Of a stretch of DNA of 64,000 nt, positions 3,877 to 36,550 are shown one piece after another. Below the pieces are notes generated by a model, which saw only the letters and a list, made by a program, of their open reading frames with translations, did not search any database and had not been told where the DNA came from. Origin of the DNA: Akkermansia muciniphila (GTDB lineage Bacteria > Verrucomicrobiota > Verrucomicrobiia > Limisphaerales > SIBE01); assembly GCA_945861765.1 (NCBI GenBank), contig CAMAWP010000002.1, forward strand, positions 585-64,584, written 5' to 3'. The stretch's first letter is position 1. The number at the start of each line of letters is the position of its first letter. Position numbers and translations under genes: made by a program.

Positions 3877-4001
3877 CTATGTTGACGCTCCGAAATGGAT
3901 TGTGGGACCACGGCCGTCTGCCGCGCGAAATAGTCACGATGCTCGGCGAGGCCAAGAAGTTCCCCGAATCAATCAAATGTACAACTCGAACCGCCGTCGA
4001 A

Positions 4002-6554: not shown

Positions 6555-6582
6555 ACCTGCTGAACATTTCCAGACCGGTTGA

Positions 6583-11021: not shown

Positions 11022-11041
11022 CTTGAGACCAATGCTCGCTC

Positions 11042-13540: not shown

Positions 13541-13568
13541 GGCGAATGAATCAACCCGGAGTGAAGTT

Positions 13569-20469: not shown

Positions 20470-21888
20470 TTAAGCCAGAACACTCATGACCGGGTCGCCC
20501 TCGGAAATCAGAACCGGTCGTTTGCCGACGCCATAGACTACCGTGTGAGGATCGATACCCAAGAGATAAAAAATAGTTGCTGCCAAGTCGTCGGGGCGAA
20601 CCGGATTGCCAACTGGGAAAGAAGCGGTCTTGTCTGACTCGCCAAAGACAAACCCTCGTTTGACTCCTCCCCCCGCCAGCAGAACTGTGTAACATTGCGG
20701 CCAATGATCTCGGCTTGCCGTGCTGTTGACTTTCGGCGTGCGGCCGAACTCGCCCATCCAGACCACCAACGTTGAATCCAGCAGACCGCGCTGATCCAGA
20801 TCCTCAAGCAAGGTGGGCAGCGTCTGGTCCGTGATCGGCAGATGATGCTTCTCGATGACAGGAAACATTCGCGTGCCGTCGTTGCCATGCGTATCCCAGC
20901 CGCCAGTTGCACCTCCAATCGAGCTCGAAAAATTGACCGTGACAAATTTCGTTCCCGCCTCGACAAGACGGCGAGCCAGGAGGCAGCCTTGTCCGTAGGC
21001 CGTGCGGCCATAACGATCCCGCTCCTTTTCCGATTCGGCCGACAGATTAAAAGCTTCGCGCAGCTTGGGCGAATCAAGCATCGCCATAGCTTTGTCATAG
21101 TAGGCATCGAGGCCGCGGGCTGAGGGGGAATAGGTGAGAAGTCGCGATTGGCCGTCGATCATTTTTTGAATTTCACGCCGATGCATGAGCCGTTCGTAGG
21201 AGAGATTGGCCGGCAGGCTCAGTTCAGGAAGCTTGAAGTCCGGCTTGTTCGGGTTTTGAGTGATCAACAATGGATCATGAAGTTTCCCTAAGAAGCTGGC
21301 CTGTTGTCCGGGAGTGATTGTTCCATCGCCAATCACATAAGGCAGGGAGACGAACGTTGGCATTTTTCCGTCTCCTGGAGCCAATTGGTCCACGACGGAA
21401 CCGTAGGCTGGAAACAGCTCAGGCGAATCGCGGAGCGTGATATCATCGACCGGCGGCGCATGTCCCGTCAGAGCGTAATACGAGGCCGGGTTATGATTCT
21501 TCATGTTGTGATGCATGCTGCGAATCAAGGTGACCTTGTCCATTACCTTGGCCAGACGCGGGAGATGCTCGTTAACCGTGATGCCCGGCACGTTGCTCGA
21601 TATCGGCTTGTGCAGCCCGCGAATTCCTTCGGGCGCGTCCGGTTTCATGTCGAACATATCGATGTGGCTGGGACCGCCGAATTGGTAGAGGAAAATCACG
21701 GACTTAGCTCTGGCCGCAGGTCCTTTCTTTAAGGCCTCAGCTTGCAGAAGGCTTGGCATGGTCAGGCCTAACAATCCGAGGCCGCCGACTTTCAAGAGGT
21801 GCCGTCGAGAAAAACGTAGTTGGTCTAATCCGCGACCGGCGTCAGAATGGGTCGTTGGCTTCATACAGCGTTGGGTTTGGTCGTTCAT
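20470..21888 (-). CDS. DUF1501-family protein with Tat-type signal
   Basis: The tracked ORF 20470..21993 was trimmed to ATG 21888, which forms an ATGA overlap with the stop of the upstream DUF1553 gene. Motifs: SRRHLLKVGGLGLLGLTMP, FGGPSHIDMFD, GGWDTHGN, MGEFGRTPKVNSTASRDHWP. Confidence 0.88.
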   Translation of the reverse strand: MNDQTQRCMKPTTHSDAGRGLDQLRFSRRHLLKVGGLGLLGLTMPSLLQAEALKKGPAARAKSVIFLYQFGGPSHIDMFDMKPDAPEGIRGLHKPISSNVPGITVNEHLPRLAKVMDKVTLIRSMHHNMKNHNPASYYALTGHAPPVDDITLRDSPELFPAYGSVVDQLAPGDGKMPTFVSLPYVIGDGTITPGQQASFLGKLHDPLLITQNPNKPDFKLPELSLPANLSYERLMHRREIQKMIDGQSRLLTYSPSARGLDAYYDKAMAMLDSPKLREAFNLSAESEKERDRYGRTAYGQGCLLARRLVEAGTKFVTVNFSSSIGGATGGWDTHGNDGTRMFPVIEKHHLPITDQTLPTLLEDLDQRGLLDSTLVVWMGEFGRTPKVNSTASRDHWPQCYTVLLAGGGVKRGFVFGESDKTASFPVGNPVRPDDLAATIFYLLGIDPHTVVYGVGKRPVLISEGDPVMSVLA

Positions 21889-24392
21889 TTTCGAAACACG
21901 AAATCTTTGGAATTCAAGAGGCCCCACAAAATGTCCTCCAGTTCCGCGCGTCGATCCTTGGATGCTTCGAGGTAAGCCGTGGTTTTGCTCCACTCTTCAT
22001 CGCCTGGAGCCGCTGTGAGAGCAGTCCGAAAAAGTTCATCGACGATCTCTCGGTTCGATTTTCCGGAAGCCAGCAGCCGAGCGAGCCGGTTATCCTTGTC
22101 GGCAACCAAATCATTGACAGCCGGGCCGCTGATCAGTTGGAAAGCCTGGCTCATGTTGCACTCGCAGGAACGCTCCGTTTCAGAAGTGAGCAGCCGGGGT
22201 GGTTTGCCGAAGATCTCAAGGAATTGATCCAACTGGTTGGATCGTCTTTGACCTTTGGCCTCGGGGCGCACTCCAGGTAGCTGGGCCGCCCTCAGACCTG
22301 GTGGATACGCGCCAAACTTCAGGGGAACACCGGTCACTTGGCTCTGGCAATCGAGCATTTGCTCGGCACCTAATCGTCTCACCAATACGTGTGAGAAATT
22401 TGATTCGTCGCTGCTGTTGGTTTCGTTCGGCTCCGATGATAACTGGTAAGCTCGCGAGTTCATGATCAGGCGAATCACGTAGCGAAGGTCAAATTGATGC
22501 TTCACGAAATCTTTTGCCAAAGCATCCAACAAGCCAGAATGAGAAGCCGGGTTAGTCGCTCGAAAATCGTCGATTGGCTCGACCATCCCGCGCCCCATCA
22601 GGTGGTACCAGATCCGGTTAGCCTGCGTGCGGGCGAACAGCGGGTTGTCCGGGCTCGTGAGCCACGTGGCTAATTGTTGCAACTCGTCTGGGTTGTTTTC
22701 GAGATTCGCATTTCGAGATTCGTTGTTGGATACGGACGTTGCCGCTCCGAGAAAACGGGGTTGAGCTGGCTTGCCGGTGCGCGGGTTTGGAACCGCGCCC
22801 TTGCGCGAGATGAAGACAATTTGCTCCCCTTTCCATTCATGTTGGTCGCTGCCGATATCGCGTTTGTTTTCCAGGACCTTGTAATCGACTCGCGCGAAAA
22901 CGCCTGCCCAATCGTAGTAATCGTCCTGCGTCCAGCGGTCGAATGGATGGTTGTGGCATTCGGCGCATTGCAAACGAACGCCGAGAAATACCTGGGCCGC
23001 TGCTTTGGCCCGCGTCGCCGGATCGCGGTTTGGACGATAAAAATTCGCCGCTGGATTAAGATAAGTGCTCCCACGAGCTGTGATCAAATCGCGAACAAAT
23101 TGGTCCATCGGTTTATTCTCAGCGATGTTCTTGCGAATCCAGTGATGGAAATTATGCACTCCCTTTTGATCCAACGAATGCGCTTCATTGCGCAGCAGAT
23201 CGGACCACTTCAATGCCCAGAAATCCGCAAACTCAGGTCGTGTTAGCAACTGTTCAATGAGCTGCGCCCGTTTCGCCAGCGTTTCGCTTTCTGTAGCCGC
23301 GGACGCAAGCTGGCTTTGATCAATTTCGGATTTGGACAGCACAGCCTCCTCACGCCGGCTGTTACCGGGAGACTCGCTCACAAATGCGCGGGCTTCGTCG
23401 GCTGTCGGCAAGATGCCCAAAAGATCAAGATACGCCCGCCGCAAGAACACTTCATCAGAACACAACGCAGAGGGGTTCATCCGAAGTATTCGAAGCTTTG
23501 AAAAAATGTGATCGTCAATGTAGTTGTGAGTCGGCGGGTTTGCCCATTTGAACCCGGGGCGAGCCGGGACAAACGCTATCCGCACCGGTTCCTGGCATTG
23601 CAGATACCGAACGAGCACCGTCGTCTCCCCCGGTCCTTCGCGTTGCGCGATTCCGTCCTGGCCAACCTTGGTCAACCCGTTGGATGTTTCGTAAACGGCC
23701 AACCCCGTCACGTCTCGACGCGTGCCGTCGGAAAAGATAGCCCCCACGCGTAGTTGGACCCGATCTTCCGGTTCGATCAGAACCTTGTCCGATGGCGTGA
23801 CTTCGATCCTCTCCAGCTTGGCGACGGAGGCGAAATCGTCCCGCAGTCCCTCGGCGATCCAGCGGCGGAGAATTTCATATTGCTCCGAGCCCTTCCGGAA
23901 GCGCAGGCCGCCCTCGTGAGCAATGTCAGTCGTCGGCTTCAACAGAAGCAAGCTCTGGTCAGCCTCGATAGGGTTCGTGCGGCGACCATACAAATCGCGT
24001 GTCACCGTGAGGAGGTCAATATCCGGATCTTGTCCGCGCAAGGAGAGTTTGAACCCGCCCTTTCCGTTCTTATTGCCGTGGCAAGTCCCGGCGTTGCATC
24101 CGGCTTTCGAGAACACCGCCATCACATCGTTCCGGAAGGAAACCTCACCTGCCCGCGCAGTGATCCATGGCAATAATTCCATGAAGCACAAGAGGAACAC
24201 CGACCAATTCAGGCGGTAGATTGGAAATAGCTGAAAACGATAGCCTGTTGGCACTTGGGAGAATCCTTTCTTCAAGTGGTCGCTTGGCCGGGTTCCGAGG
24301 ATTTGCTGAATACTCGATATGACAAGCATCGTTCCACTTCGAACACGTCGTTGAAAACGCGAAGCTCCAGCCAATTCTGTGCGAAGCGCCAT
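21885..24392 (-). CDS. DUF1549/DUF1553 (PSCyt/PSD-type) protein
   Basis: 835-aa ORF; the internal ATG at 24329 is an alternative start. Motifs: GCNAGTCHGNKNGKGGFKLSLRG, LRRAYLDLLGILPTADE, QCAECHNHPFDRW, RSCECN. It lacks the first Ig-like segment of the + strand copies. Confidence 0.88.
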   Translation of the reverse strand: MALRTELAGASRFQRRVRSGTMLVISSIQQILGTRPSDHLKKGFSQVPTGYRFQLFPIYRLNWSVFLLCFMELLPWITARAGEVSFRNDVMAVFSKAGCNAGTCHGNKNGKGGFKLSLRGQDPDIDLLTVTRDLYGRRTNPIEADQSLLLLKPTTDIAHEGGLRFRKGSEQYEILRRWIAEGLRDDFASVAKLERIEVTPSDKVLIEPEDRVQLRVGAIFSDGTRRDVTGLAVYETSNGLTKVGQDGIAQREGPGETTVLVRYLQCQEPVRIAFVPARPGFKWANPPTHNYIDDHIFSKLRILRMNPSALCSDEVFLRRAYLDLLGILPTADEARAFVSESPGNSRREEAVLSKSEIDQSQLASAATESETLAKRAQLIEQLLTRPEFADFWALKWSDLLRNEAHSLDQKGVHNFHHWIRKNIAENKPMDQFVRDLITARGSTYLNPAANFYRPNRDPATRAKAAAQVFLGVRLQCAECHNHPFDRWTQDDYYDWAGVFARVDYKVLENKRDIGSDQHEWKGEQIVFISRKGAVPNPRTGKPAQPRFLGAATSVSNNESRNANLENNPDELQQLATWLTSPDNPLFARTQANRIWYHLMGRGMVEPIDDFRATNPASHSGLLDALAKDFVKHQFDLRYVIRLIMNSRAYQLSSEPNETNSSDESNFSHVLVRRLGAEQMLDCQSQVTGVPLKFGAYPPGLRAAQLPGVRPEAKGQRRSNQLDQFLEIFGKPPRLLTSETERSCECNMSQAFQLISGPAVNDLVADKDNRLARLLASGKSNREIVDELFRTALTAAPGDEEWSKTTAYLEASKDRRAELEDILWGLLNSKDFVFRK

Positions 24393-24468
24393 GGTGATTT
24401 GGATTATTACCCGTTACCTCCTCCTTTTACAAGCGGCTGTAGAGACGAAATCTTTGGGTGATCCGCGG

Positions 24469-27400
24469 TTAAGCTGCGCTTGCTCCGTTGCGTCGGAACG
24501 ATCGGGTCATTGCGCTGAACAAAGTCAGCACCAATAACGTCGCCGCCAAGATCAGCAGTCGTGTCCGCCACGACGCAGCTTGCGTGGCTGTGGCCTCAAT
24601 TCCGATCTTCAGATCAGCCCAAGGATCCACTGCAACGGCGCGCTTGAAGGTGAGGAGGTGACCTTGTTCTGGAATCGAAGCGCGAATGGCGGTGGGACTG
24701 CTCACGGCGGCGTCTTGCTGTTGAATGAGTCGTTCGGCCAAGCGCATGTAAGCGGCGTTCTCGTCGGCGGTATTCCTGTCGATTATCGCTTTGGCGTCTG
24801 GCTGTGTGTAGTTGAGATCCTTGCCGCTCCGCAGATCGCGGAAGTTGCCGCCCAGCACCGCGGAATCTCCAGCCGCGGTAGCCTGGCGCACGTTCAAGCC
24901 GACCAGTGCTTGCTGCAATTTAAGATTGTGCAGTTGCACTCGAGCATCTTCGTTGAACGCATTGTCATGCTGGCTCAGTCCGTAGGCGGCTTGGAAGGCG
25001 CGGCGGGCCTGTTGCTGCTCGCCCTGCTGCAACTTGGTGTTGCCGAGCGACAGCATTTGCTCGGCTTCCTCAGTTTTCTGTTTTTGCAGGCTGGTTTCGT
25101 TCCGTAGATAGGTCTCGACATCAACAACCGCTGAGCGCACTCCGGGTTGTTCCTCTTGCAGTTGGAGCGACCCCTTCCAATGCTTGAGGTGCCATTTCTC
25201 GTTGAGATAGACATGCCAGGTAATGTCTTCCAACGGCAGATCAAATTTCGGCGCGACAAGAGCCAAGTTGAGCGTGCGCGTGTTCGCCGCGCCAATCTTG
25301 CTGCTGTAAAAAATCTCCACGGGCATGGCCTGGCCCGCGCGCGAATGTTGTTCGAGTGGAATCAAAAAGTGTTCTTGCTCGCGCCATGGCCAAGCTCCGT
25401 TTTGGTTTACAAAGGCGAACCAGAAGCGCGCGTCGGCCGGAAGCGTGAGGTGGAGGAGACGCTTGTCGCCGGGCAGCATCTCGAGGCGCGCGTGCGTGAG
25501 CATCACGCCATCATCGGAAATCACTGAGGTGAGCGTAATGTTGTTCACGCGCGCGGGCAGGAGTTTGGCCGCGTCGTGGCGGTCAATCTTCAAGGGAAGT
25601 TGGAAGGCCGGTTCAACCAGCCGATACGCGAAGCTTGCCGAGGCCGCTGGCAAATCCTGCTGGAGCGCGCGCGGGATGCTTTGCCATTCGGTGGGTTGAA
25701 GGGCGGCTGGCGTCGAATCAACGCGCACTTGCAGACGTCCGCCCGACTGCACAGTGACAAAACCGCGCTGAAGGTTCACATCCGCAGCTTGCACCCCATT
25801 GAGGATAACCTCCGTGGCCTGCCCTGGAATCAGCGTCTGGTAAGTCACCTGCAACAGGTATCGGCCAATCACGCGCCGGTGCAATTTCACTTCCCACGCT
25901 TGCAAACCGTTGGTCACAACGCCTGCGATCGGCAGGAAATCGGAGATTTGCTCACCGTGGAATCGCGCGCTCTCGGCATTGGTCGGAATGAAGACGCGGA
26001 ATGCTTTGATGCCGGTGTTCTCGATCTGGTATTGGAGATTCGCGGTGATCTTCATCTGCGCTTCGTTGACGATCGCGTGCTGCAAGCTCGTCACTTGAAT
26101 CCAGGGCTCCACTTGCTCGATGTCAAGCGCGAGGGACCACGGAACTTGCAGAACGCGGAACGCCAGCACTCCTTTTTGCCGAATGCCCGATTTCTGAGGA
26201 TCCAGTTGCGTCACGCCGTCGCGTGTGGCGACCTGCAAACGCGTCCCTTGCTCCGGCACAATCACGAGCGTTCCCCGCTGCTTGCTGGCTTCGCGCAGGA
26301 GCAGTTGCGGCACGGCCCAAGCGTTGGTCGCCTTGGCACCTGGCCCGGCCAGGCTGATGGCGAACTGTTGTTTGCCCTCGGTCTTGCCGCGCAAATGCAA
26401 CGTGATGATGCGGCCCGCCTCGGTCCTCAACTCGGTCCAATGGCTTAGCGCTGGCCCACTGACAGATTCCACGTCCAGCCCGTTTGGCAACGCAAAGCTT
26501 AGTCGAAAAATGCCCGCGCGCGTGATGTCCACGGTCGCGTTCACCGCCAGCACCGTTCGGTCTTCACCGAGTGAAAGCGTGTCCTGGGTCTCGACGCGGA
26601 CATCGGCTTCGACAGCGGAGGCCTTCAATGATGCCACGGCTTTGATGTCTCCGTAACGAAAGGCGCGTCGCACGGTGAGCCCCGGGATCTGTGCTTGCAG
26701 GGTTGGCGCGATTCCGGCCGGGAAATCTTCGAGGTTAATTGACGAGAAGGCATCGGCGCTCACGGTATCGAGCTGCACCTCACTTCCCGTAGCCACGCCG
26801 AGAAGTCCGATTTGCGCCGCCGCATTTTCCACGGCTAACAGGCCAACGGATTGCTCGAAGGGCAGCGGTCCTGTCGCAATTTGTGATCGAATGAGCAGAG
26901 CAAACTGCCGCGATTGCGCCGGGTTGAAGCTCACGCGCAGCTTCCGAGTGTCTGGGTCGAAACGCCACAGCGACACGAGGGAAGACTTCGGAGCCAGAGG
27001 TTGAATTGTGACGGGATCGACTGCATTCACATCAGTGATGGTCGTACCGCTGGGCGCCTCGAACAGTAGCTCTTTCAGTTCGCCTTGAGCTGGCCGGATA
27101 GTCACGTAGTGCGTCCCTTCAATGACCCCCGCCGAGGGTGCGTAGAGCTGGAATGCCTCTGCATAAAAGACTGGCTTCTCGCGTTGAACGTCCCTGCTGC
27201 GCGGTCTCCATGCAATCCACGAATCAATCACAGGTGAGAGAGTCAGCTTTGCCACGCTGTTGCTGCCAACAGCGTCACGCTGGATTGAAACGGCCTGCGG
27301 CGAGAGCACGTCCACGTCAAGGTTCACGAGCGTTAGAATAAGCTGATTCACCAGCCCGTATTGTGTCGGAAGGACGAAACCACTCTCAGTGACACCTTTC

Positions 27401-30400: not shown

Positions 30401-31665
30401 GGGCTTATGTTGATCTGGGACAGCATCTCCGCGGCGTAGAAAAGCTTGCCCTCCGCCTCGGGTCGGGCGGCTTTCCACGAGAGTTTGACTGTCCCGTCCG
30501 GCGGCAGAAAGCTCATGAATTCGTTGCCTGAGCGTTCGGGCCGCGCTGCTCCTGCGAACTGGAATTGGGTGTCTGGGGGCAGCGCCTCGAGAATGATCGG
30601 TTGCAGCGCGCTGGGAGCCACATGGAAATCGACGATGTTCCAGCCATCGTTCCGGTGAACTGCGGCGTTGAATTTGAGCTGGATTGGAAATTCGCCAGGC
30701 TGATCGAAGACGAGGATAAACCGGCCTTGGTCGAAACGCAGGCGCCAGTTGGGATTTGGTTGAAAATCGGTGAGCGCGATGTTTCCGGAAATCAGAAGAA
30801 CAGAGCCGCCTCTTGGATTCTTTACTCGCACGGTGGTGTTGAGGGTGAATCCAGCGATCTGGTCACTGAGCTGGCCGACGAGTTTAAAGTTGCGGAGGAC
30901 GACTCTCCGCGCCTCCGGATCGGCGATAGTGACTCGAAGTGGCAACGAGTAGGCCGAGCCGTGGAACCGAAACGGCATGGGCTCGGGTTCATCGGGCTTG
31001 GTCTCGCCACGCATCCGCTCTGGCAGAAAACCCGGTGCGATCGGGACGAGGCCGGAAGGATTGACGGGCTGCACGTCGAGTTCCGGAGACGCTTCGACCT
31101 TCACATAACCGTTGAAGAGGGCGGGCTGCGTCGGAGTGAGCGTGAGAGACGGAAGCGTGTTCAACAAAGCCTTAAGCTCCCGCTCTGCGGCGATCGTGAC
31201 GGTGAGCTGCGTGAGAGGTTTGTCGCCTTTGCGTGGGCGCAGAACCAGCGTGCGCAAGCCGTTCGTCTCCTGCCGAACGCTCCAGTCTTGCAGCGCATCG
31301 CCGCTGACCCGCAGGATCTCTCCGTCGCCGGAGATGATGAGCGGAAGTTCTTTCGGATCACCTTGGAGGATGTCGAGCGTGGCAATGATGGAGTGGGTGA
31401 CTTTGTCACGCGTGACTTTGATGGAGTGCTGGAGCGCGGTCGCGTAAATGAGTTTCTCCCTGTCTGTGGGAAGGCCGTTGAGCACGGCTTCGATGACTAA
31501 CCGCGCCTTGCCATCTTCGAGGCCGCCACTCACGGAAAGGTTCCTGAGCTCGGTCGTCGCGGCAACCGCAGGCAGCAGGGTGAGAAGTAACTGGATGGCT
31601 GAAAGCGCGCCAAGCAACGGACGTCGCGCAAATTCTTTAAGGTGTGCTGAGACAAGGTTCTTCAT
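24469..31665 (-). CDS. 2398-aa hypothetical membrane protein, internally duplicated, no family recognised
   Basis: Single uninterrupted ORF. Signal-like LLGALSAIQLLLTLLPAVAA. A cluster of about five hydrophobic helices is encoded at roughly 27790-28420, and there is a C-terminal TM (LLILAATLLVLTLFSAM). The two halves share ordered motif series (see findings). Confidence 0.8.
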   Translation of the reverse strand: MKNLVSAHLKEFARRPLLGALSAIQLLLTLLPAVAATTELRNLSVSGGLEDGKARLVIEAVLNGLPTDREKLIYATALQHSIKVTRDKVTHSIIATLDILQGDPKELPLIISGDGEILRVSGDALQDWSVRQETNGLRTLVLRPRKGDKPLTQLTVTIAAERELKALLNTLPSLTLTPTQPALFNGYVKVEASPELDVQPVNPSGLVPIAPGFLPERMRGETKPDEPEPMPFRFHGSAYSLPLRVTIADPEARRVVLRNFKLVGQLSDQIAGFTLNTTVRVKNPRGGSVLLISGNIALTDFQPNPNWRLRFDQGRFILVFDQPGEFPIQLKFNAAVHRNDGWNIVDFHVAPSALQPIILEALPPDTQFQFAGAARPERSGNEFMSFLPPDGTVKLSWKAARPEAEGKLFYAAEMLSQINISPGLMRQVALMNFKVMQGELNRVVLLLSGAGEVTRVQGDQVLAWNVEPVPNSTDRRLIVHFNQPQKDQFALQAQMQTPLGAFPQTANAMQLRPEGATRFAGYFRIVNDGAVRLEVVLASGLSQISPEQFPESDITKALFRVAGGQRFAYRFSGADVALRIQADQILPELTVSQVLAYHLGENELAIDGEIELDIREAPLRELVLRVPKGYAVAKLNASGLSDYFLREAADRADAELRLVYGQPMAGRQVVQLRLERNATLGGPSWVLPRIEVDKAKSVRGHVGVSADAGFRLTPERTQALTEIATAFFPRKLVGIQSAFRLSEPAWEATVRVERVPQSIQADGFHLFSIGEGIAYGSSVVNYLVSGAPVSAFKLELSDEYFNVEFSGKDIRNWQKATNGYVVQLHTPVSGAYTLLATYERPFKTQGETLVFTGARPIDAQSEQGHTLVISAYQFQVKPVDVSAGLLPLETGEVPPEYRLFFDAPILAAYRYTSRPFNLRLALSRLAQGDSLSQVVDRASLTTRISKEGQVLTDVRYFIKNRGNPHFRLTLPPGTELWSATINSAAVVPVTDGSANLIPLPQRADPNAVLMLDLKLAARSKNPKHVTVAAPVVAAPVMLAEWKLEPETGQRLIYRKGSLTPVGGEADVSGFTQLARMFHGEEAGPVTVCLIAVMALLAIAIRVWRWTSQEGVYKFDARYISGTVLGVISFGMAIAVMANLADLAQQQYQIAPRAVTFLAPVQQADSALNVEMLNVEDEMSVVSVVGFAWPALAALAMWAYGWLTERHWFRVIGWTLAAWAALRWPNGAKGFLVVVVAFLLLHVLIPALRQLARLPRKPKPTSPSAPEGGAAMSVASLVLGGLMWLPMANQAIAMSADIQAALPETSKENDAASSTKATGAQADEARRPQPAPFPKEPPLAESITQQIRVEEKFAFGTAKIRWQALKGEMLPLLFEPAVLTRITHPTNALKLVQAPAGSKRAQQLLAVESGAFDIEMQYQVHTTKGVTESGFVLPTQYGLVNQLILTLVNLDVDVLSPQAVSIQRDAVGSNSVAKLTLSPVIDSWIAWRPRSRDVQREKPVFYAEAFQLYAPSAGVIEGTHYVTIRPAQGELKELLFEAPSGTTITDVNAVDPVTIQPLAPKSSLVSLWRFDPDTRKLRVSFNPAQSRQFALLIRSQIATGPLPFEQSVGLLAVENAAAQIGLLGVATGSEVQLDTVSADAFSSINLEDFPAGIAPTLQAQIPGLTVRRAFRYGDIKAVASLKASAVEADVRVETQDTLSLGEDRTVLAVNATVDITRAGIFRLSFALPNGLDVESVSGPALSHWTELRTEAGRIITLHLRGKTEGKQQFAISLAGPGAKATNAWAVPQLLLREASKQRGTLVIVPEQGTRLQVATRDGVTQLDPQKSGIRQKGVLAFRVLQVPWSLALDIEQVEPWIQVTSLQHAIVNEAQMKITANLQYQIENTGIKAFRVFIPTNAESARFHGEQISDFLPIAGVVTNGLQAWEVKLHRRVIGRYLLQVTYQTLIPGQATEVILNGVQAADVNLQRGFVTVQSGGRLQVRVDSTPAALQPTEWQSIPRALQQDLPAASASFAYRLVEPAFQLPLKIDRHDAAKLLPARVNNITLTSVISDDGVMLTHARLEMLPGDKRLLHLTLPADARFWFAFVNQNGAWPWREQEHFLIPLEQHSRAGQAMPVEIFYSSKIGAANTRTLNLALVAPKFDLPLEDITWHVYLNEKWHLKHWKGSLQLQEEQPGVRSAVVDVETYLRNETSLQKQKTEEAEQMLSLGNTKLQQGEQQQARRAFQAAYGLSQHDNAFNEDARVQLHNLKLQQALVGLNVRQATAAGDSAVLGGNFRDLRSGKDLNYTQPDAKAIIDRNTADENAAYMRLAERLIQQQDAAVSSPTAIRASIPEQGHLLTFKRAVAVDPWADLKIGIEATATQAASWRTRLLILAATLLVLTLFSAMTRSFRRNGASAA

Positions 31666-31737
31666 TTTTGTTGAATCGATTGAGTTGTGCGTAAAAGTCT
31701 GTGATGGCTCTCCTGTATTCTCGCTCTCTGGTTAGTC

Positions 31738-34700
31738 CTATCTTCCCGCGATGCTCTTGGCTTGCCGGATCATCCATTCGAGCTTTTTGGGGCGGGCGTC
31801 GGCGCCGTAAACGTCCGGCACGCCGCTGAGATAGGCGAGCAACCGATCCGGCGTGACTTCGCCCGCATAAGGACTCGACACGAGCCATTCTGAGAACGCG
31901 CTCGCGGTCGCGGCCAAGCGCATGGCAGAGCTGGCTTGCTCCAACGGAAGGGCATCCCCGGCGAAAGGCACGGCCCATTCGTGCTCGCGGTATTCGGCGG
32001 TGCCAGGAAGTTTGTAACGGACCCGGACGATGGCGATCGGGCCTTCGCCGCGCGGATTCACTTCCACGACGTAAAGCGCGTTGCCGGACTCAGCCGCGCC
32101 GATCTCGGCGGCATCGACGGTGTTGTCGCGGAACTGCTCCTTGGTGAGTTGGTGCTTCGCGTAGCCGACCTGGCGATACGCGGCGACGCGCCTGGGATTG
32201 AACTCGACCTGCACCTTCACATCCGAGGCCGCGACGCGCAGCGCGCCGGCGAGTTGGCCGGCAAACTCAGTCGATGCTTCTTCCGGAGTGTTCACGAAGC
32301 CGTAACGGCCATCGCCATTGCGTGAGAGCACTTCGAGTAAATCGTCGTTAAGGCCTTCCCAGCCGATCCCAAAGCAGTCGAGCGCGATACCTTGTTTGCG
32401 GTGCTCTTCCACTTTCTGTTTGAGTGCATCAGGACTCACGTTGCCGAGGTTGGCTGCACCATCGGTGAGGAGCACGACGCGATTGACGCCGCCGTTAACG
32501 TAATGCCTGAGCGCAGTCTGATAACCCGCGTTCATGGCTTCTTCGAGATTCGTGCCGCCCTGTGGAGTGAGGTTGCCAAGCTGCTCTGAGATCTGGCCGG
32601 CTTGGTTGCCGACTATGCCATCCACCCAGAGTCGCGCGGTGCGTGCGAAAGCAATCACACTCAGCTTGTCTTGCGGTTGCAATTGAGCGGCCAGCACGCG
32701 CAACGCTTCGCGAACGATCCGCACACGGTCGGCACGCTCCATCGAGCCGGAGTTGTCCAGCAGCAGCACGAGATTCAGCGGACGGTTCGGTTGGCGGCCT
32801 TGCGCGGCGGTCTTAACTGAGAAACGGAGCATGTCGCGGTTATGGGCGAACGGGTATCGCGCACGCTCCCAGGCGAACGCCACCGGCATGCCGGAGGGCG
32901 GCTCGGAATCGCGGTAATCGAAGGCATTAATGAATTCCTCGCTTCGCACCGCGGCAGGCTCGGGCATAATGCCGTGTTCGAGACTCGCAGCCGCCAGCTT
33001 GAACGAAACATCGGAAACATTGAGTGAGAAAGTGGAGAGCGCACTGTCGCGTGTTTGCACCTCTGGCTGAGGAACTGGAGCCACCGAAGCGGGCTTGGAT
33101 GGAGTGAGGTCGGAAAGTTTGATCTGGGATTCTTCCTGAAAGAGCTCCGGACGTGTTGGAGCACGGGTAATTTTCTTTTCCGTTTCCATCAGGCCCGCCT
33201 TCTCCGCGTTGGACGCTGCTTCCTTCCCGCTGGCATCTTTCCAGGTTCCAGAGAGACGCCGGGTTGCTGGTTCGACGTGGAGGGTTCCTTCCTCTCCAGC
33301 GCTCGAACTAACTGCCGGAAGGGCGATGGACAGCGCTACCGGTGGTCGCTTGGCTTCTTGGCCTGGGACAACGGCAACCTTCTGAGATATTGAATCATCG
33401 AGTGTGTTGAGTCTCGCAAGGGCAAACTCGTCGTTGAGAGATTTATCGGTCTCGCCTAGTCCTTCCGTCTTGAACTTGGATAACTTCTGGTTCGCTTCGT
33501 CCGACGGACCAGCAGCGCCTCGCGTGAGCCCATAACGTTCCATCAACTTCGGGTCCATTTTGAAGGCGGGCATTTCCTGGGGAGGCGGTGTTGTCGGAGC
33601 CGGCGTTTCGATGAAGCGCGAGGCTGCGTTTTGAGTTGGAGCTAGTGGTGGAGGTTGAGCCGGTAAGGGCAGGTCAAGCCTATCTCTGACGCTCGATTGC
33701 GCTTGAGGTTCCAAGGCCTTGTAGTCGGCGTGCGTGTCTTGTGGTTGTTGCTCTCCAAGTCCACGCGCCAACCGACGTTCGAGTCCCAGGAGGCGATTCT
33801 CGAACAGAAGCTCCACGTTTTGCGGTGTCTGTCGTAGAAGCTCATCTCTGTCATTGGCCGCCACGGTTCCTCTTCCGAAGGCGACATTGCCGCTCTTCGA
33901 GAGTGTCTCGGCTCCAGACGTGCGCTTCAGGTCCGAGCTTAGTTCTGTCATTCCCGGCCGGGGCAATGTCAGCCCGTAGGCGACATCATCAACACGGTTC
34001 ACGACCTCCGATTCTGAGGTGGCCGTTGCCGTTTGAATGTACGTTGTTCCGTTGACAGCGAAAGCCGCGATGCTGCCGCGGTCACCAGCGATAGATTCCT
34101 CAACATTAAGGACCTTCTTTTTGCCGAGTTCTGCGCTACCGCTCAATGGGAGGACGGCAACGCTGGTAGGGCCTTTCTGACCGGCTGCCGGCAGGACAAG
34201 ACCCTTGCGGTTTGCACCGTTTCCACCCAAGAGAATGTTCGCGTCAGGCGCTAGTGTCGTTTGTGGTGGTGCGCTGACAGCGACCGCAGCCAGAGAATCT
34301 GTTGGGGCAGTTGGAATGGGGCGATCAAGGGCAGACGGGCTATTCGAAAGGAAGGATGATGCGCCATTTTGTTTGTCTGATTCAGGCAACCTTTCACCCT
34401 CTCCTCTGGCAATCTCACGAGCTGGCAGCGCGAAAAGTGTTCCTGTTTTGATGGCCGGATAACTGAAATTCACCAAAGGCTTTTCACCACCAAAACCCTC
34501 CGTGCGCTTCGAAGGATCGCCTTTTTGGAAAGCGAATCCGGCGCCCCCGCCGAGACCCACGCCAGGCTCGCGTATGGACGGTTCCTTAACCTCCTTCTTA
34601 GAAACGCGGACCCGTGCAACGTCTCTCCGATCTTGGGAAGCGGTTCCGTCGTCATTCGTCAATTGCTCGTCGGTTATTTCGACGTCGGAAACTGTCGCCT

Positions 34701-35154
34701 TAGCCATCTCGCGTTCAGAATTTCGCGAAGCCATGGGTGCCTTGAAGCGATGAAACTGATTGGAGAAACCTGGGAGCAGCGCCACCGAACCGATCAAGGC
34801 AACCAGAGCCGCAGCGAGGCTCAAGGGGATATACCAAGCCTTCTGGCGATGGTCTGGACGATTAAACTCTTTTGGGGTTACCGTCTTGAAATGTTGGACG
34901 AGATTCTTGCGGCGCGCGTCAGACAGCCTGAGCGTGGAGTGTTGCGCGGTGGTTTGCGCCGTCGGGTCGGTTGCAGCTTCGGCCACGAGGTCAATGGTTC
35001 GCTTGAGGCGCTCGTACAGCGTGGCTAGCTCGACATTCTGTTCCATAGCCTGCCGGATGGCGGCTGCTTCTTCAGCGGACAATTCGCCGAGCAGCAGCGC
35101 GGTTAAGCGGACTTCCATTTGCTCGTGAGCGCTTTGGGGAGAGTCTGGGTTCAT
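31738..35154 (-). CDS. anti-sigma-factor-like N-terminus fused to a periplasmic von Willebrand factor A (YfbK-like) domain
   Basis: 1138-aa ORF. The N-terminus LTALLLGELSAEEAAAIRQAMEQNVELATLYERL is typical of ECF anti-sigma factors. One TM (YIPLSLAAALVALIGSVALL). A long low-complexity linker follows. VWA MIDAS motif LVLLLDNSGSM...LTDGAANLG. It lies directly downstream of an ECF sigma gene. Confidence 0.8.
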   Translation of the reverse strand: MNPDSPQSAHEQMEVRLTALLLGELSAEEAAAIRQAMEQNVELATLYERLKRTIDLVAEAATDPTAQTTAQHSTLRLSDARRKNLVQHFKTVTPKEFNRPDHRQKAWYIPLSLAAALVALIGSVALLPGFSNQFHRFKAPMASRNSEREMAKATVSDVEITDEQLTNDDGTASQDRRDVARVRVSKKEVKEPSIREPGVGLGGGAGFAFQKGDPSKRTEGFGGEKPLVNFSYPAIKTGTLFALPAREIARGEGERLPESDKQNGASSFLSNSPSALDRPIPTAPTDSLAAVAVSAPPQTTLAPDANILLGGNGANRKGLVLPAAGQKGPTSVAVLPLSGSAELGKKKVLNVEESIAGDRGSIAAFAVNGTTYIQTATATSESEVVNRVDDVAYGLTLPRPGMTELSSDLKRTSGAETLSKSGNVAFGRGTVAANDRDELLRQTPQNVELLFENRLLGLERRLARGLGEQQPQDTHADYKALEPQAQSSVRDRLDLPLPAQPPPLAPTQNAASRFIETPAPTTPPPQEMPAFKMDPKLMERYGLTRGAAGPSDEANQKLSKFKTEGLGETDKSLNDEFALARLNTLDDSISQKVAVVPGQEAKRPPVALSIALPAVSSSAGEEGTLHVEPATRRLSGTWKDASGKEAASNAEKAGLMETEKKITRAPTRPELFQEESQIKLSDLTPSKPASVAPVPQPEVQTRDSALSTFSLNVSDVSFKLAAASLEHGIMPEPAAVRSEEFINAFDYRDSEPPSGMPVAFAWERARYPFAHNRDMLRFSVKTAAQGRQPNRPLNLVLLLDNSGSMERADRVRIVREALRVLAAQLQPQDKLSVIAFARTARLWVDGIVGNQAGQISEQLGNLTPQGGTNLEEAMNAGYQTALRHYVNGGVNRVVLLTDGAANLGNVSPDALKQKVEEHRKQGIALDCFGIGWEGLNDDLLEVLSRNGDGRYGFVNTPEEASTEFAGQLAGALRVAASDVKVQVEFNPRRVAAYRQVGYAKHQLTKEQFRDNTVDAAEIGAAESGNALYVVEVNPRGEGPIAIVRVRYKLPGTAEYREHEWAVPFAGDALPLEQASSAMRLAATASAFSEWLVSSPYAGEVTPDRLLAYLSGVPDVYGADARPKKLEWMIRQAKSIAGR

Positions 35155-35222
35155 AAGCTAAAACAGAGTGCAGCTCTGAGCGACGGCGTTGCGGCCTGTT
35201 TGGTTCGAGGGCGGAGGCATGA

Positions 35223-35780
35223 TCATGGCACAACTCCGGTTCTCGCGAGTTCAGCGGCGATTGCTTTCAGCGCGTGGTGGAGAAGGTAACCCACGTGGCT
35301 GACTGTCAAACCGGTGCGGGCTCCGATTTCTTTGTAGGACAGATCCTCGTTGAATTTGAGGCGAACCAGCTCGCGACCGCGATCATCGAGGGTTTCCAGG
35401 CTGAGCTGGACTAGCTCAATGCCCTCCCATCGGGCAACCTGTTCATCGGGCAGAGGTTGGGGATCGGTGGACTCGGGGTCAGCCAGCGAGCCGTCTTCGG
35501 TGTTTGAAATGAGTGGCACGATTTTTCCGGCGCGGCGTCGATGGTTCAGTGCGAGGTTATGCACGGTTCGGTAGAGCCAGCGTCGGGGCTCGCGGACTTT
35601 CTCAAACTGCGCGTGGAGTCTCATGAATGCTTCTTGAACCACGTCCTCGGCGACGTCGAGTTCATTGAACAGGCGCACGGCGTAGTTCAGGAGAGGCGAT
35701 TCCAGAGCTGCAAAGAGCTCTTCGATCGTTTCCCATCTCGGCGGTTCCACGATGACTTCGTTTGGTTGGGCCACGGTCAT
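35223..35780 (-). CDS. RNA polymerase ECF-type sigma-70 factor
   Basis: 185-aa ORF. Region-2-like DVVQEAFMRLHAQFEKVREPRRWLYRTVHNLALNHRRR. Region-4 HTH DLSYKEIGARTGLTVSHVGYLLHHALK. Confidence 0.9.
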   Translation of the reverse strand: MTVAQPNEVIVEPPRWETIEELFAALESPLLNYAVRLFNELDVAEDVVQEAFMRLHAQFEKVREPRRWLYRTVHNLALNHRRRAGKIVPLISNTEDGSLADPESTDPQPLPDEQVARWEGIELVQLSLETLDDRGRELVRLKFNEDLSYKEIGARTGLTVSHVGYLLHHALKAIAAELARTGVVP

Positions 35781-35804
35781 GCCTGGCTGAGTAATTTTTA
35801 TCGC

Positions 35805-35830
35805 AACATTTACTTCAACCGCTGGTTTCC
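35805..35830 (-). promoter_or_regulatory. possible ECF-type promoter upstream of the sigma gene
   Basis: On the minus strand: GGAAAC (35830-35825), a 17-nt spacer, then GTTGCG (35807-35802), about 20 nt upstream of ATG 35780. This resembles the GGAAC-N16/17-CGT/GTT pattern of autoregulated ECF promoters. It is a motif match only. Confidence 0.25.
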
Positions 35831-35884
35831 GCGACCCCGGCTATTGCTGCTCTCACTGATTAAGACACTTGAGATCCATACTTC

Positions 35885-36550
35885 TTAGACGATTTTTTTA
35901 CTTTGATACTCGAAGCCAGCGGCCGCGGGTCGGCCACGAGGAAGCTTGCCCACGTGATACTGGATGAATCCCGCCAGAAATTTTCCGATTTCGCCATCTT
36001 GGCTTTGGCTGGGCTTGATGCGCTGGATGGCGGTCCAGTTTGCGCTGGTGATTCGTTCAAGGATCTCGGCTGAGCCAGGGCTGAGCTGGGCCTTGCGGAA
36101 ATCCGGTTTCAAACCGAGCTGATGCAGGAGCTTTGTTTCAAAGGCATACACTGTGAGAGCTTGCGGCGATGCTTCAGTCAGGCTTTTGAGCGCGCTGAGA
36201 AACAGCTCGAAGAGCCCAGGCACAGGCGAGTCCGACTCGGTGGTCTGCTCGACTAGTTGCGTGAAATAGGAGGCCTGCTGGAGATAGCCAAGTTCCCGTC
36301 TGAGACCGGAATGAAAGTCGAGCACGCTTACTTCGTGCAGGTTATGCAATTCACTTCGGCGGCTTCGATGGAAGGAAAAATCACACAGATAGAAGAGATC
36401 AAGCTTGCCTCGGAAGGGCGATTTAGGACGGAGCGCGCCCTTCGCCACCGTGGCGATTCTGCCCAAGTCCGGCGTCACCCAATGCACGATTAAACTAGTC
36501 TCGGTCAGGGCGCGTGTGCGAAGGATCAGCCCAGGCGTGCGTTGGTCCAT
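35885..36550 (-). CDS. recO: DNA repair protein RecO
   Basis: 221-aa ORF. The N-terminal OB-fold-like GLILRTRALTETSLIVHWVTPDLGRIATVAKGALRPKSPFRGKLDLF is typical of RecO. It sits in the usual ybeY/recO neighbourhood. Confidence 0.85.
   Translation of the reverse strand: MDQRTPGLILRTRALTETSLIVHWVTPDLGRIATVAKGALRPKSPFRGKLDLFYLCDFSFHRSRRSELHNLHEVSVLDFHSGLRRELGYLQQASYFTQLVEQTTESDSPVPGLFELFLSALKSLTEASPQALTVYAFETKLLHQLGLKPDFRKAQLSPGSAEILERITSANWTAIQRIKPSQSQDGEIGKFLAGFIQYHVGKLPRGRPAAAGFEYQSKKIV

What the first reader, a model, noticed from the sequence alone, without database searches (positions are those of the whole stretch)
20470..35780. ECF sigma -> anti-sigma/VWA -> 2398-aa membrane giant -> DUF1553 -> DUF1501: candidate uncharacterised envelope system
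Five same-strand genes lie in series with short gaps: 68, 72 and 76 nt, then an ATGA start/stop overlap between the last two. They pair a dedicated regulatory module with three large extracytoplasmic proteins of unknown function. The regulatory module is an ECF sigma plus a membrane anti-sigma whose periplasmic part is a VWA domain. The three proteins are a duplicated giant with a central TM bundle, a Cys-motif DUF1553 protein and a Tat-exported sulfatase-fold DUF1501 protein. DUF1553/DUF1501 pairs are abundant in PVC genomes but have no assigned biochemistry. Here one pair is physically tied to a sensor/regulator and a giant membrane protein, which gives a testable context. I recognise no described system with this composition.
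Basis: partly seen in the sequence, partly recalled or inferred. Interest (0 to 1): 0.75.

Follow-up and report, generated by a model that had tools for sequence, protein, structure and literature searches.

The report
Sigma-controlled giant envelope protein module
A dedicated stress-type sigma factor, its membrane sensor and a 2,398-residue membrane protein of unknown function form a three-gene unit kept together across hundreds of Verrucomicrobia, while the two DUF1553/DUF1501 genes beside it here are almost certainly just neighbours.

Summary
The five minus-strand genes, their gaps and their domain calls are all real. Comparison with other genomes splits them into two parts.

**Conserved core (three genes).** ECF sigma, then an anti-sigma with a periplasmic vWF_A/VWA/YfbK_C head, then the giant.
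- Both regulator genes lie upstream of the giant in 43 of 45 Verrucomicrobiota loci with enough flank. The other two are scoring artefacts.
- The order also holds for giants only 29-44% identical.
- A bipartite ECF-type promoter motif (GTCTAAG-N16-TGTC) occurs once per locus, just upstream of sigma.
- In three loci where the regulators are not adjacent, the motif sits directly upstream of the giant. This marks the giant as the regulated product.

**The giant.** It has no Pfam, NCBIfam or PDB sequence match. It is 56-79% identical across verrucomicrobial orders, and distant relatives occur across the PVC superphylum. It consists of two exported arrays of beta-sandwich domains joined by a six-helix membrane bundle.

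**The DUF1553/DUF1501 pair.** It follows the giant in the same order and strand in only 1 of 47 loci. The window carries two more such pairs and two lone DUF1501 genes nearby.

**Verdict.** This is a conserved, uncharacterised three-gene module of a known regulatory type with a new output protein. Its function is inferred, not shown.

The parts
35864..35891 (-). ECF-type promoter motif. The -35-like CGTCTAAGAA is at 35891-35882 and the -10-like GTGTC at 35868-35864. The -35 box overlaps the recO stop codon (35887-35885). The motif lies about 85-110 nt upstream of the sigma ATG.
   Evidence: CGTCTAAGnA and GTGTC are invariant at fixed spacing in 19 aligned loci. The strict motif is present in 33 of 45 sigma upstream regions. 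Chthoniobacter-type loci carry a variant, TTCTAACAAAC-N-CCGTCT. With a looser pattern, 39 of 42 hits in 1.54 Mb (both strands) lie at the expected place. Only one full copy occurs in the window.
35223..35780 (-). ECF (group 4) sigma-70 family sigma factor, 185 aa.
   Evidence: Sigma70_r2 and Sigma70_r4_2. TIGR02937 sigma70-ECF at 5.8e-23. Orthologues are 57-75% identical and lie upstream of the giant in 44 of 45 loci.
31738..35154 (-). Single-pass anti-sigma factor, 1138 aa. Cytoplasmic N-terminal anti-sigma-like helices (34855-35154). TM helix aa 109-127 (34774-34830). A linker of about 560 aa with no recognised domain (not tested for disorder); total protein length varies between species. 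Periplasmic vWF_A/VWA/YfbK_C head at aa 699-1138 (31741-33060). MIDAS DNSGS at 32743-32757.
   Evidence: Pfam vWF_A, VWA and YfbK_C. Weak NF052375 anti-sigma hit at aa 17-141, E 3e-5, below its cut-off. TM helix. The C-terminal head is 70-83% identical in 59 loci and DxSxS is present in 59 of 59. Orthologues carry the same Pfam architecture.
24469..31665 (-). Giant membrane protein, 2398 aa. Signal peptide aa 1-37. Exported beta-sandwich array 1, aa 38-1081. Six-helix TM bundle aa 1082-1287 (27805-28422). Exported array 2, aa 1288-2182. Helical region aa 2183-2320. C-terminal TM helix aa 2368-2386 (24508-24564). Internal repeat aa 396-1058 (28492-30480) against aa 1482-2167 (25165-27222).
   Evidence: Duplication and hydropathy. 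AlphaFold2 models of both halves are all-beta, then helical. No Pfam, NCBIfam, PADLOC or PDB sequence match. Orthologues are 56-79% identical. The family has 2981 clusters at 50% identity.
21885..24392 (-). DUF1549/DUF1553 (PSCyt2 plus PSD1) protein with CAECH and CNAGTCH motifs. It is an adjacent gene, not part of the conserved module. It may be co-transcribed here.
   Evidence: Pfam. Motifs. An orthologue follows the giant only in L062. The true start is uncertain.
20470..21888 (-). DUF1501 protein with a twin-arginine signal (SRRHLLK). It is coupled to the DUF1553 gene through the ATGA overlap. It is not part of the conserved module.
   Evidence: Pfam E 2e-97. Tat motif. Synteny is absent in 44 of 47 loci and orthologous in only 1. 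Four more DUF1501 genes lie in window 1-15 kb.

Best explanation
The real unit is a three-gene, self-regulated envelope module: ECF sigma, single-pass anti-sigma and giant.

**Shown by comparison.**
- The three genes stay together across verrucomicrobial orders, including giants only 29-44% identical to this one.
- A conserved promoter with ECF geometry (GTCTAAG-N16-TGTC) precedes sigma.
- The same motif precedes the giant directly in three loci where sigma and anti-sigma are not adjacent. The giant is therefore the conserved product of this promoter.

**Inferred mechanism.**
- The cytoplasmic N-terminus of the anti-sigma holds sigma inactive.
- Its periplasmic VWA/YfbK_C head hangs on a long linker and binds a ligand through its metal-ion site (MIDAS).
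- Loss or gain of that contact inactivates the anti-sigma. Freed sigma then transcribes its own operon and raises the level of the giant.
- My preferred guess is that the ligand is the giant itself. The head and the giant are both in the periplasm and both unusually conserved. That would make a feedback loop that monitors the amount or state of the giant.

**What the giant probably is.** Two periplasmic chains of about eight beta-sandwich domains each, anchored by a six-helix bundle and a C-terminal helix. No catalytic domain is recognisable. It is most likely a structural or scaffolding envelope protein.

**The DUF1553/DUF1501 pair.** It is a lineage-specific neighbour. At most it is read through from the giant gene in this organism.
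For: **Synteny.** 43 of 45 loci with at least 5.5 kb upstream show both regulator genes; the other two are scoring artefacts. Pfam-annotated contexts agree in C. flavus and four other genomes, including giants at 29-44% identity.

**Promoter.** Two invariant boxes at fixed spacing. One copy per locus, always upstream of sigma. 39 of 42 loose-pattern hits in 1.54 Mb lie at the expected site. A Chthoniobacter-type variant exists. The motif lies directly upstream of the giant in L061, L084 and L085, where the regulators are not adjacent.

**Constraint.** The giant is 56-79% identical. The anti-sigma head is 70-83% identical with MIDAS intact in 59 of 59 loci. By contrast the anti-sigma N-terminus is 31-59% identical and the linker varies in length.

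**Topology.** A signal peptide, six hydrophobic helices that obey the positive-inside rule, and a C-terminal anchor place both arrays in the periplasm.

**Fold.** Both halves are strings of beta-sandwiches: pLDDT 68 for the N-half and 85 for the C-half. Both have ribophorin I/Ost1 as the best PDB match, at E 1e-7 and 2.4e-11.

**DUF pair excluded.**
Against: - No transcript or protein data exist. The promoter assignment is a motif inference and no transcription start was mapped.
- Nothing tested here shows that the VWA head touches the giant. High conservation of both is only circumstantial.
- In the window, the semi-conserved GGAGCA element upstream of the -35-like box is degenerate, because it lies inside the recO coding region.
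- Foldseek TM-scores are 0.30 or lower, so the fold matches say only 'chains of beta-sandwiches'.
- No terminator-like hairpin separates the giant from the DUF1553 gene, and L062 keeps the pair. Co-transcription in this lineage cannot be excluded.
- The helix count of the bundle comes from hydropathy only.
Confidence: 0.6

Rival explanations
1. Sigma and anti-sigma control one envelope machine made of the giant plus the DUF1553 and DUF1501 proteins, transcribed as a single operon.
For: Same strand and short gaps. No terminator-like hairpin lies in the giant-to-DUF1553 gap. The pair is retained downstream of the giant in the closest relative L062, at 69% and 76% identity.
Against: The orthologous pair follows the giant in 1 of 47 loci with downstream flank. 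Two others hold paralogous pairs in a different order or on the other strand. C. flavus and four other annotated contexts lack it. The window has two further DUF1553/DUF1501 pairs and two lone DUF1501 genes on the other strand within 15 kb. No second copy of the promoter motif exists. The real gap may be about 200 nt.
Confidence: 0.1
2. The giant is only the effector, for example a protective or structural envelope layer made under stress. The VWA head senses an unrelated periplasmic or external ligand such as a metal, a polymer or a damaged envelope component.
For: The same synteny and promoter evidence as the best explanation. VWA/MIDAS domains bind many kinds of ligand. ECF289-type anti-sigmas with DUF3520 plus VWA exist in other ECF groups that are not reported to have giants. 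One locus has two tandem VWA/YfbK_C genes, which hints at diversified sensing.
Against: The head is as conserved as the giant (70-83% against 56-79%). That fits a fixed protein partner better than a varying environmental ligand. Giants that lack adjacent regulators still keep the promoter.
Confidence: 0.25
3. The giant is a bacterial alpha-2-macroglobulin-like protease trap, as the UniRef name for the C. flavus orthologue suggests.
For: UniRef100_B4D1N6 is labelled 'Alpha-2-macroglobulin domain protein'. Complement C5 and CD109 appear among weak Foldseek matches.
Against: No A2M-family Pfam domain is found, even at E up to 1, in 19 diverse members. No CxEQ thioester motif is present, and there is one cysteine in 2398 residues, inside a TM helix. 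The duplicated, TM-anchored architecture is unlike YfhM/ECAM. C5 and CD109 rank far below ribophorin I and the integrin legs.
Confidence: 0.02
4. The giant is a surface adhesin or S-layer-like protein and the regulators tune adhesion.
For: It has long arrays of Ig-like beta-sandwiches that resemble integrin alpha-subunit legs, next to a VWA partner.
Against: 56-79% identity across orders is far higher than is usual for exposed adhesins. A six-helix inner-membrane bundle plus a second TM anchor tie both arrays to the cytoplasmic membrane. No secretion-system signal or cell-wall or outer-membrane anchor was found.
Confidence: 0.05

Closest known systems
ECF sigma group ECF289 (Casas-Pastor et al. 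2021, PMC7826278), whose anti-sigma carries DUF3520 (now Pfam YfbK_C) fused to a von Willebrand A domain
   Same: An ECF sigma is followed at position +1 by a membrane anti-sigma with VWA plus YfbK_C/DUF3520. A self-preceding promoter with ECF geometry is present.
   Different: Whether this sigma belongs phylogenetically to ECF289 could not be tested. No giant at position +2 is described for that group in the text read. No member of this anti-sigma type was found to be experimentally characterised.
Cell-surface signalling (FecI/FecR/FecA type): an ECF sigma, an anti-sigma whose periplasmic domain contacts an envelope protein, and that protein encoded in the regulon
   Same: The proposed logic is the same. 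The periplasmic domain of the anti-sigma reports on an envelope protein that is itself the product of the sigma-dependent promoter.
   Different: There is no TonB-dependent transducer and no FecR domain. The sensor is a VWA/MIDAS head on a long linker. The partner is an inner-membrane giant. The contact is inferred, not shown.
Ribophorin I / Ost1 (non-catalytic subunit of eukaryotic oligosaccharyltransferase) and PIG-T of GPI transamidase
   Same: These are the best or recurrent PDB fold matches for both independently modelled halves: 8b6l_O, 6s7o_E, 6c26_1, 6ezn_A, 7w72_T. They are membrane-anchored, non-catalytic beta-sandwich ectodomains.
   Different: Sequence identity is 7-12% and TM-scores are 0.30 or lower. 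There is no Pfam Ribophorin_I hit. The giant is about four times larger, duplicated and polytopic. The resemblance is at fold level only.
Bacterial alpha-2-macroglobulins (YfhM/ECAM)
   Same: Large periplasmic, membrane-tethered chains of beta-sandwich domains. A UniRef label points here.
   Different: No thioester motif, no A2M Pfam domains and a single cysteine.
DUF1549/DUF1553 plus DUF1501 gene pairs of PVC bacteria
   Same: The pair at 20470-24392 is a typical member: PSCyt2 plus PSD1 with CxxCH, then a Tat-signal DUF1501.
   Different: It is not linked to the module outside this lineage. No paper in the searched library mentions both families together.

Membership tests
ECF (group 4) sigma-70 factors | Only the sigma-2 and sigma-4 domains, and a small size | tested here: met
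   185 aa with Sigma70_r2 at aa 22-86 and Sigma70_r4_2 at aa 123-174. TIGR02937 at 5.8e-23 and 81 bits, above the 42.9 cut-off.
ECF (group 4) sigma-70 factors | A cognate anti-sigma encoded immediately downstream and a self-preceding bipartite promoter | tested here: met
   The anti-sigma lies 68 nt downstream. The conserved GTCTAAG-N16-TGTC motif lies upstream of sigma in orthologous loci. Sigma dependence of the motif was not tested experimentally.
ECF289-type pair (anti-sigma with DUF3520/YfbK_C plus VWA) | Anti-sigma architecture DUF3520 plus VWA | tested here: met
   YfbK_C at 5e-30, VWA at 8e-14, vWF_A at 4e-13. Group description in PMC7826278.
ECF289-type pair (anti-sigma with DUF3520/YfbK_C plus VWA) | The sigma falls in the ECF289 clade or matches its HMM | not testable with these tools
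   No ECF-group HMMs were available. NCBIfam gives only generic ECF hits.
Class I / zinc-binding (ZAS) anti-sigma domain | An N-terminal anti-sigma helical domain; for ZAS, the HxxxCxxC motif | tested here: inconclusive
   Weak NF052375 'antisigma' hit at aa 17-141, E 3e-5 and 24 bits, below the 100-bit cut-off. There is no cysteine in aa 1-135, so it is not ZAS. The helical LLLGELSAEEAAA... segment resembles class I domains only by my reading.
VWA domain with functional MIDAS | DxSxS ... T ... D metal-ion-dependent adhesion site | tested here: met
   DNSGS at aa 800-804, T868 (in GGTN) and D898 (in LTDG). DxSxS is present in 59 of 59 orthologues.
Alpha-2-macroglobulin family | A2M / A2M_N / thioester-domain Pfam domains and the CxEQ thioester | tested here: not met
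   No such Pfam hit in 19 members at E up to 1. No C.EQ motif and a single cysteine.
Ribophorin I / OST1 | Sequence membership (Pfam Ribophorin_I) and a global fold match | tested here: not met
   No Pfam hit. Foldseek E is 1e-7 to 2.4e-11 but TM-scores are 0.13-0.30 and identity 7-12%. This is a fold-level resemblance only.
DUF1549/DUF1553 (PSCyt2/PSD1) and DUF1501 | Pfam domains above the gathering score | tested here: met
   PSCyt2 145 bits, PSD1 146 bits, DUF1501 327 bits.
   Sigma and anti-sigma are kept in 43 of 45 loci. The DUF1553/DUF1501 pair is kept in 1 of 47.
Known anti-phage defence systems | Match to PADLOC models | tested here: not met
   No hit for any of the five proteins.

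The most novel reading that the evidence does not exclude
The giant is a PVC-specific, periplasm-filling scaffold. The cell measures its abundance or integrity directly. The anti-sigma's VWA head docks on the giant through an integrin-like MIDAS contact. Loss of that contact releases the sigma, which rebuilds the giant. This would be a new form of self-monitoring trans-envelope signalling that needs no TonB-dependent transducer. It would also be the first function for both the YfbK_C/DUF3520 anti-sigma class and a phylum-wide orphan protein family.
Probability: 0.2. Interest if true: 0.7.

Novelty: new variant of a known kind. Interest (0 to 1): 0.5.

Why it matters
- **A large orphan family gets a regulatory context.** The giant has no domain annotation, yet it is 56-79% identical across verrucomicrobial orders. 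It was found in 333 species-representative genomes, and distant relatives occur in Kiritimatiellia, Lentisphaerae and Planctomycetes. Constraint that strong on a 2,400-residue envelope protein suggests an important, interaction-rich role in a phylum with few genetic models.
- **It is now testable.** The module supplies a dedicated sigma, a defined promoter motif and a cultured host (Chthoniobacter flavus Ellin428). Overexpressing one small gene should switch the system on.
- **It is a first handle on an unstudied sensor class.** No experimental study of a VWA/YfbK_C (DUF3520) anti-sigma factor was found in the searched library.
- **It removes a false lead.** The DUF1553/DUF1501 pairs remain without a functional context.

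Tried and rejected
- **Exact look-up of the window's giant.** Nothing on record, although an identical cluster representative, P0001, exists.
- **Family searches for the giant.** Relaxed Pfam scans of 19 diverse giants and a profile search of PDB sequences gave only noise: CBM_35 at E 0.002, TPR at E 0.05, and a hydrophobic match of the TM bundle to FdnI at E 0.002. I treat these as insignificant.
- **PADLOC and Rfam.** PADLOC gave no hits. Rfam found no RNA family in the window.
- **An error of mine.** My first anti-sigma C-terminal tblastn query was out of frame, which made the head look only 34-53% identical. It was redone in frame. The positions remain valid; the identities do not.
- **First reading of the promoter.** I first took GGAGCA-N17-CGTC as the -35 and -10 boxes. 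I rejected this in favour of GTCTAAG-N16-TGTC. Both of those boxes are invariant, and distant loci (L085, L088) keep CTAAG...GTC but lack the CGTC.
- **Extra genes between anti-sigma and giant.** A CarboxypepD_reg protein and a 243-aa protein occur there in L009, L020 and L018. They are sporadic and absent from the window.
- **Literature.** Searches for DUF1553 with DUF1501, for YfbK, and for VWA anti-sigma factors found no functional studies.
- **Structure prediction.** A 69-sequence alignment was too large for the prediction tool, so a 32-sequence alignment was used instead.
Full report
**1. Observation**

The region holds five minus-strand ORFs exactly as described:
- sigma, 35223-35780
- anti-sigma, 31738-35154
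- giant, 24469-31665
- DUF1549/DUF1553 protein, 21885-24392
- DUF1501 protein, 20470-21888

The gaps are 68, 72 and 76 nt, and the last two genes overlap in ATGA.

Profile searches confirm the domain calls:
- The sigma has Sigma70_r2 and r4_2 and matches TIGR02937.
- The anti-sigma has one TM helix at aa 109-127 and a C-terminal vWF_A/VWA/YfbK_C block at aa 699-1138.
- The fourth protein has PSCyt2 plus PSD1. The fifth has DUF1501 at E 2e-97.

Direct reading adds three details:
- an intact MIDAS site in the anti-sigma (DNSGS at aa 800-804, T868, D898)
- CAECH and CNAGTCH motifs in the DUF1553 protein
- the twin-arginine signal SRRHLLK in the DUF1501 protein

The giant has no Pfam, NCBIfam or PADLOC hit. 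Its two halves are homologous: aa 396-1058 against aa 1482-2167, 24% identity, E 4.5e-38.

Upstream on the same strand lie recO, ybeY, phoH and a HIT-family gene.

One caveat concerns the 76-nt gap. Conservation of the DUF1553 protein with its closest orthologue starts only at aa 57. TTG and GTG starts at aa 40 and 47 would give an ordinary signal peptide. The gap after the giant may therefore be about 200 nt.

**2. Which genes belong together**

The giant has very close full-length relatives: 63-75% identity over about 2,350-2,450 aa among the 120 best hits. One of them is in the cultured Chthoniobacter flavus Ellin428.

A scan of one genome per GTDB species found 333 encoding stretches. I fetched the best 80 with flanks. 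They come from Limisphaerales, Chthoniobacterales, Verrucomicrobiales and Pedosphaera, plus some evidently mis-binned MAGs. I then searched these loci by tblastn with the window's proteins.

| Flank tested | Loci with enough flank | Result |
|---|---|---|
| At least 5.5 kb upstream of the giant | 45 | 43 show both sigma and anti-sigma, same strand and order |
| At least 4 kb downstream of the giant | 47 | 1 (L062) has the orthologous DUF1553-then-DUF1501 pair |

- The two upstream exceptions are artefacts. One has a 5.5-kb insert that pushes sigma off the fetched piece. In the other my estimate of the giant's start was off.
- The L062 pair is 69% and 76% identical to the window's.
- L051 and L054 carry paralogous pairs (24-33% identity) in the other order or on the other strand.

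Gene-called, Pfam-annotated contexts agree:
- C. flavus has sigma, a VWA/YfbK_C anti-sigma and the giant, followed by an MFS gene on the opposite strand and a che cluster.
- A Limisphaerales MAG has the same three genes.
- The three-gene order also persists for giants at about 44%, 35% and 29% identity. The last of these has two tandem VWA/YfbK_C genes.
- Two giants at 25-28% identity have no adjacent regulators.

The window itself is rich in the DUF families. Within its first 24 kb it holds five DUF1501 genes and three DUF1549/DUF1553 genes. One such pair landing beside the module is not surprising.

**3. A conserved promoter ties the giant to the sigma**

The regions upstream of sigma share two invariant boxes at fixed spacing: CGTCTAAGnA, then 13 nt, then GTGTC.
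- Read as GTCTAAG-N16-TGTC, this has the canonical ECF geometry, in which an AAC-type -35 box lies 16-17 nt from a CGT-type -10 box. That geometry is from my own knowledge of ECF promoters.
- Chthoniobacter-type loci carry a variant, TTCTAACAAAC-N-CCGTCT.
- A strict pattern hits once per locus, always just upstream of sigma.
- A looser pattern gives 42 hits in 1.54 Mb on both strands. Of these, 39 are at the expected place. That is a background of about 1e-6 per nt.

Three loci serve as natural experiments.
- In L061 the full motif lies about 130 nt upstream of the giant's ATG. Unrelated sequence lies further upstream, and there is no sigma or anti-sigma in the roughly 580 nt of contig upstream of the motif.
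- In L084 and L085, the distant giants without adjacent regulators, motif variants lie 298 and 132 nt upstream of the giant.

The giant is therefore the conserved target of this promoter.

In the window the motif is at 35891-35864. Its -35 box overlaps the recO stop codon. There is no second full copy in 64 kb. The only other loose match lies inside the anti-sigma coding region and is probably chance.

**4. Anatomy of the giant**

Hydropathy and the positive-inside rule suggest the following layout:
- a cleavable signal peptide (AVA|AT)
- an exported N-terminal array, aa 38-1081
- six TM helices between aa 1082 and 1287, with basic cytoplasmic loops (RWTSQEGVYKFDARY; TERHWFR; RQLARLPRKPKP)
- a second exported array, aa 1288-2182
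- a helical region, aa 2183-2320
- a C-terminal TM helix at aa 2368-2386 with a basic tail

Each half thus looks like a signal-anchor, an ectodomain and a membrane anchor. The central bundle looks like the fused anchors of an ancestral tandem pair.

AlphaFold2 models were built for both halves.
- The N-half model has pLDDT 68, from 38 close sequences.
- The C-half model has pLDDT 85, from 32 diverse sequences.
- Both show chains of beta-sandwich domains. The C-half then has long helices.

Foldseek against the PDB gives the same leading matches for both halves:
- ribophorin I/Ost1 of oligosaccharyltransferase, at E 1e-7 and 2.4e-11
- then integrin alpha-subunit legs, PIG-T, the N-domain of LTA4 hydrolase, and CD109 or complement C5

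TM-scores are only 0.13-0.30 and identities 7-12%. I read this as 'membrane-anchored, non-catalytic beta-sandwich ectodomain' and nothing more specific.

The UniRef label 'Alpha-2-macroglobulin domain protein' on the C. flavus orthologue fails its test. There are no A2M domains, no CxEQ thioester motif, and a single cysteine in 2398 residues.

**5. Breadth of the family**

An exhaustive HMMER search with the N-half found 2981 clusters at 50% identity with E at or below 1e-3. Most are 2,100-2,400 aa and match in two stretches.

A search seeded with a distant member returned proteins labelled Kiritimatiellia, Lentisphaerae and Verrucomicrobia. At E 1e-40 to 1e-21 it also returned Planctomycetes (Thermoguttaceae, Mariniblastus).

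Two variants are worth noting:
- One member carries a C-terminal DUF4140 plus DUF4139 extension.
- Another has a pseudopilin-like DUF1559 domain where the second half begins.

**6. Constraint pattern**

| Part | Identity across the 80 loci |
|---|---|
| Sigma | 57-75% |
| Giant | 56-79% |
| Anti-sigma VWA/YfbK_C head | 70-83% (mean 75.5%), MIDAS in 59 of 59 |
| Anti-sigma N-terminus | 31-59% |

The anti-sigma's total length ranges from 1097 to 1545 aa, because the linker varies. An earlier lower figure for the head came from my out-of-frame query.

The head and the giant are both periplasmic and both tightly conserved. This is circumstantial support for a direct contact between them.

**7. Mechanism**

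Shown by comparative evidence: a three-gene unit, a conserved ECF-type promoter upstream of sigma, and the giant as that promoter's conserved product.

Inferred:
- The N-terminus of the anti-sigma sequesters sigma.
- The MIDAS head binds a periplasmic ligand.
- A change in that contact inactivates the anti-sigma, and sigma then raises expression of the operon.

My preferred version is that the ligand is the giant itself, giving homeostatic control of a structural envelope scaffold. I put this at about 0.2-0.3. The main rival is that the head senses an unrelated ligand and the giant is only the effector.

The DUF1553/DUF1501 pair may be read through in this lineage, since no terminator-like hairpin lies in the gap. 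It is not part of the conserved unit.

**8. Relation to what is known**

Pairing an ECF sigma with an anti-sigma that carries DUF3520 (now YfbK_C) and VWA is described as group ECF289 (PMC7826278). I could not test whether this sigma belongs to that group. I found no experimental work on that anti-sigma type, on YfbK, or on DUF1553/DUF1501 pairs.

The logic resembles cell-surface signalling of the FecIRA type, but without a TonB-dependent transducer.

**9. Verdict**

It is a new variant of a known regulatory kind with an uncharacterised, phylum-wide output protein. Interest is moderate. It is well defined and testable, but its function remains inferred.

Noticed in passing
window 1091-14897 (+ strand) and 20470-24392 (- strand): A local concentration of PVC 'orphan' genes. 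Five DUF1501 genes: 1091-2425, 2542-3876, 6583-7986, 13512-14897 and 20470-21888. Three DUF1549/DUF1553 genes: 3651-6554 (which also has Big_2), 11042-13540 and 21885-24392. A 1011-aa ORF with no Pfam hit (7986-11021) lies among them.
   Followed up: partly
window 35864-35891 and 35885-35887: The -35-like box of the sigma promoter overlaps the recO stop codon. The semi-conserved GGAGCA element upstream of it is degenerate here because it lies inside the recO coding sequence.
   Followed up: yes
window 35781-35863; sigma upstream regions of loci L003-L083: A leader of about 75-110 nt lies between the motif and the sigma ATG. In several loci GTGTC is followed by a complementary GACAC and by a short conserved ...CGATGTC... 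and ...GCCGGAACGGTT... stretch. This could be a hairpin or a small upstream ORF. In Chthoniobacter-type loci the upstream ATG is in frame with sigma, which is annotated as 206 aa.
   Followed up: no
window 52127-53452 (-): A 441-aa protein matches the tubulin-tyrosine ligase family (TTL, PF03133) at E 3e-47. This is of possible interest in a phylum where some members carry tubulin homologues.
   Followed up: no
window 46913-50644 (+): A 1243-aa protein whose only hit is a Laminin_G_3 domain. A few giants (P0103, P0301) also carry precomputed PF13385 Laminin_G_3 hits.
   Followed up: no
P0339 (2726 aa), aa 2192-2710: One distant giant carries a C-terminal DUF4140 plus DUF4139 extension. This is either a gene fusion or a merged neighbouring gene, and hints at a functional link with that uncharacterised family.
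   Followed up: partly
P0357 (2682 aa, Thermoguttaceae), aa 1021-1183; also P0345, P0348, P0354: Planctomycete and other distant giants contain a pseudopilin-like DUF1559 (SBP_bac_10) domain where the second half begins. Some are named 'pseudopilin PulG' or 'prepilin-type processing-associated' by JGI. L087 and L088 also have prepilin-type genes next to the module.
   Followed up: no
L009 4493-9620; L020 7610-9776; L018 1167-1895: In a few loci extra same-strand genes sit between the anti-sigma and the giant: a 480-528-aa CarboxypepD_reg repeat protein and a 243-aa secreted protein with no Pfam hit whose stop overlaps the giant's start. L009 has two further unknown ORFs (251 and 738 aa). None of these genes is in the window.
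   Followed up: partly
L034 and L050 (both from MAG GL74_DN_concoct_278): Two different contigs of one MAG each carry a full sigma, anti-sigma and giant module (giants 65-69% identical to the query). This is either a paralogous duplication or a mixed bin.
   Followed up: no
L088 1487-7905: A distant module (giant about 29% identical) has two tandem VWA/YfbK_C genes between sigma and the giant.
   Followed up: no
L062 8620-9929, with weaker copies at about 5381-5521 and 13806-13940: The longest ORF between the anti-sigma and the giant in the closest relative looks like a translated repeat. It matches on both strands within the locus, and it also matches the region just upstream of the giant in L004, L053, L080 and L082.
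   Followed up: no
giant aa 2225-2262 (window about 24880-24993) and aa 2139-2150: The motifs most conserved across the whole family, down to 25% identity, are not in the beta-sandwich arrays. They are AFNEDARVQLxNLxxQQAxVGLN in the C-terminal helical region and PxFDLPLENIxW just before it.
   Followed up: no
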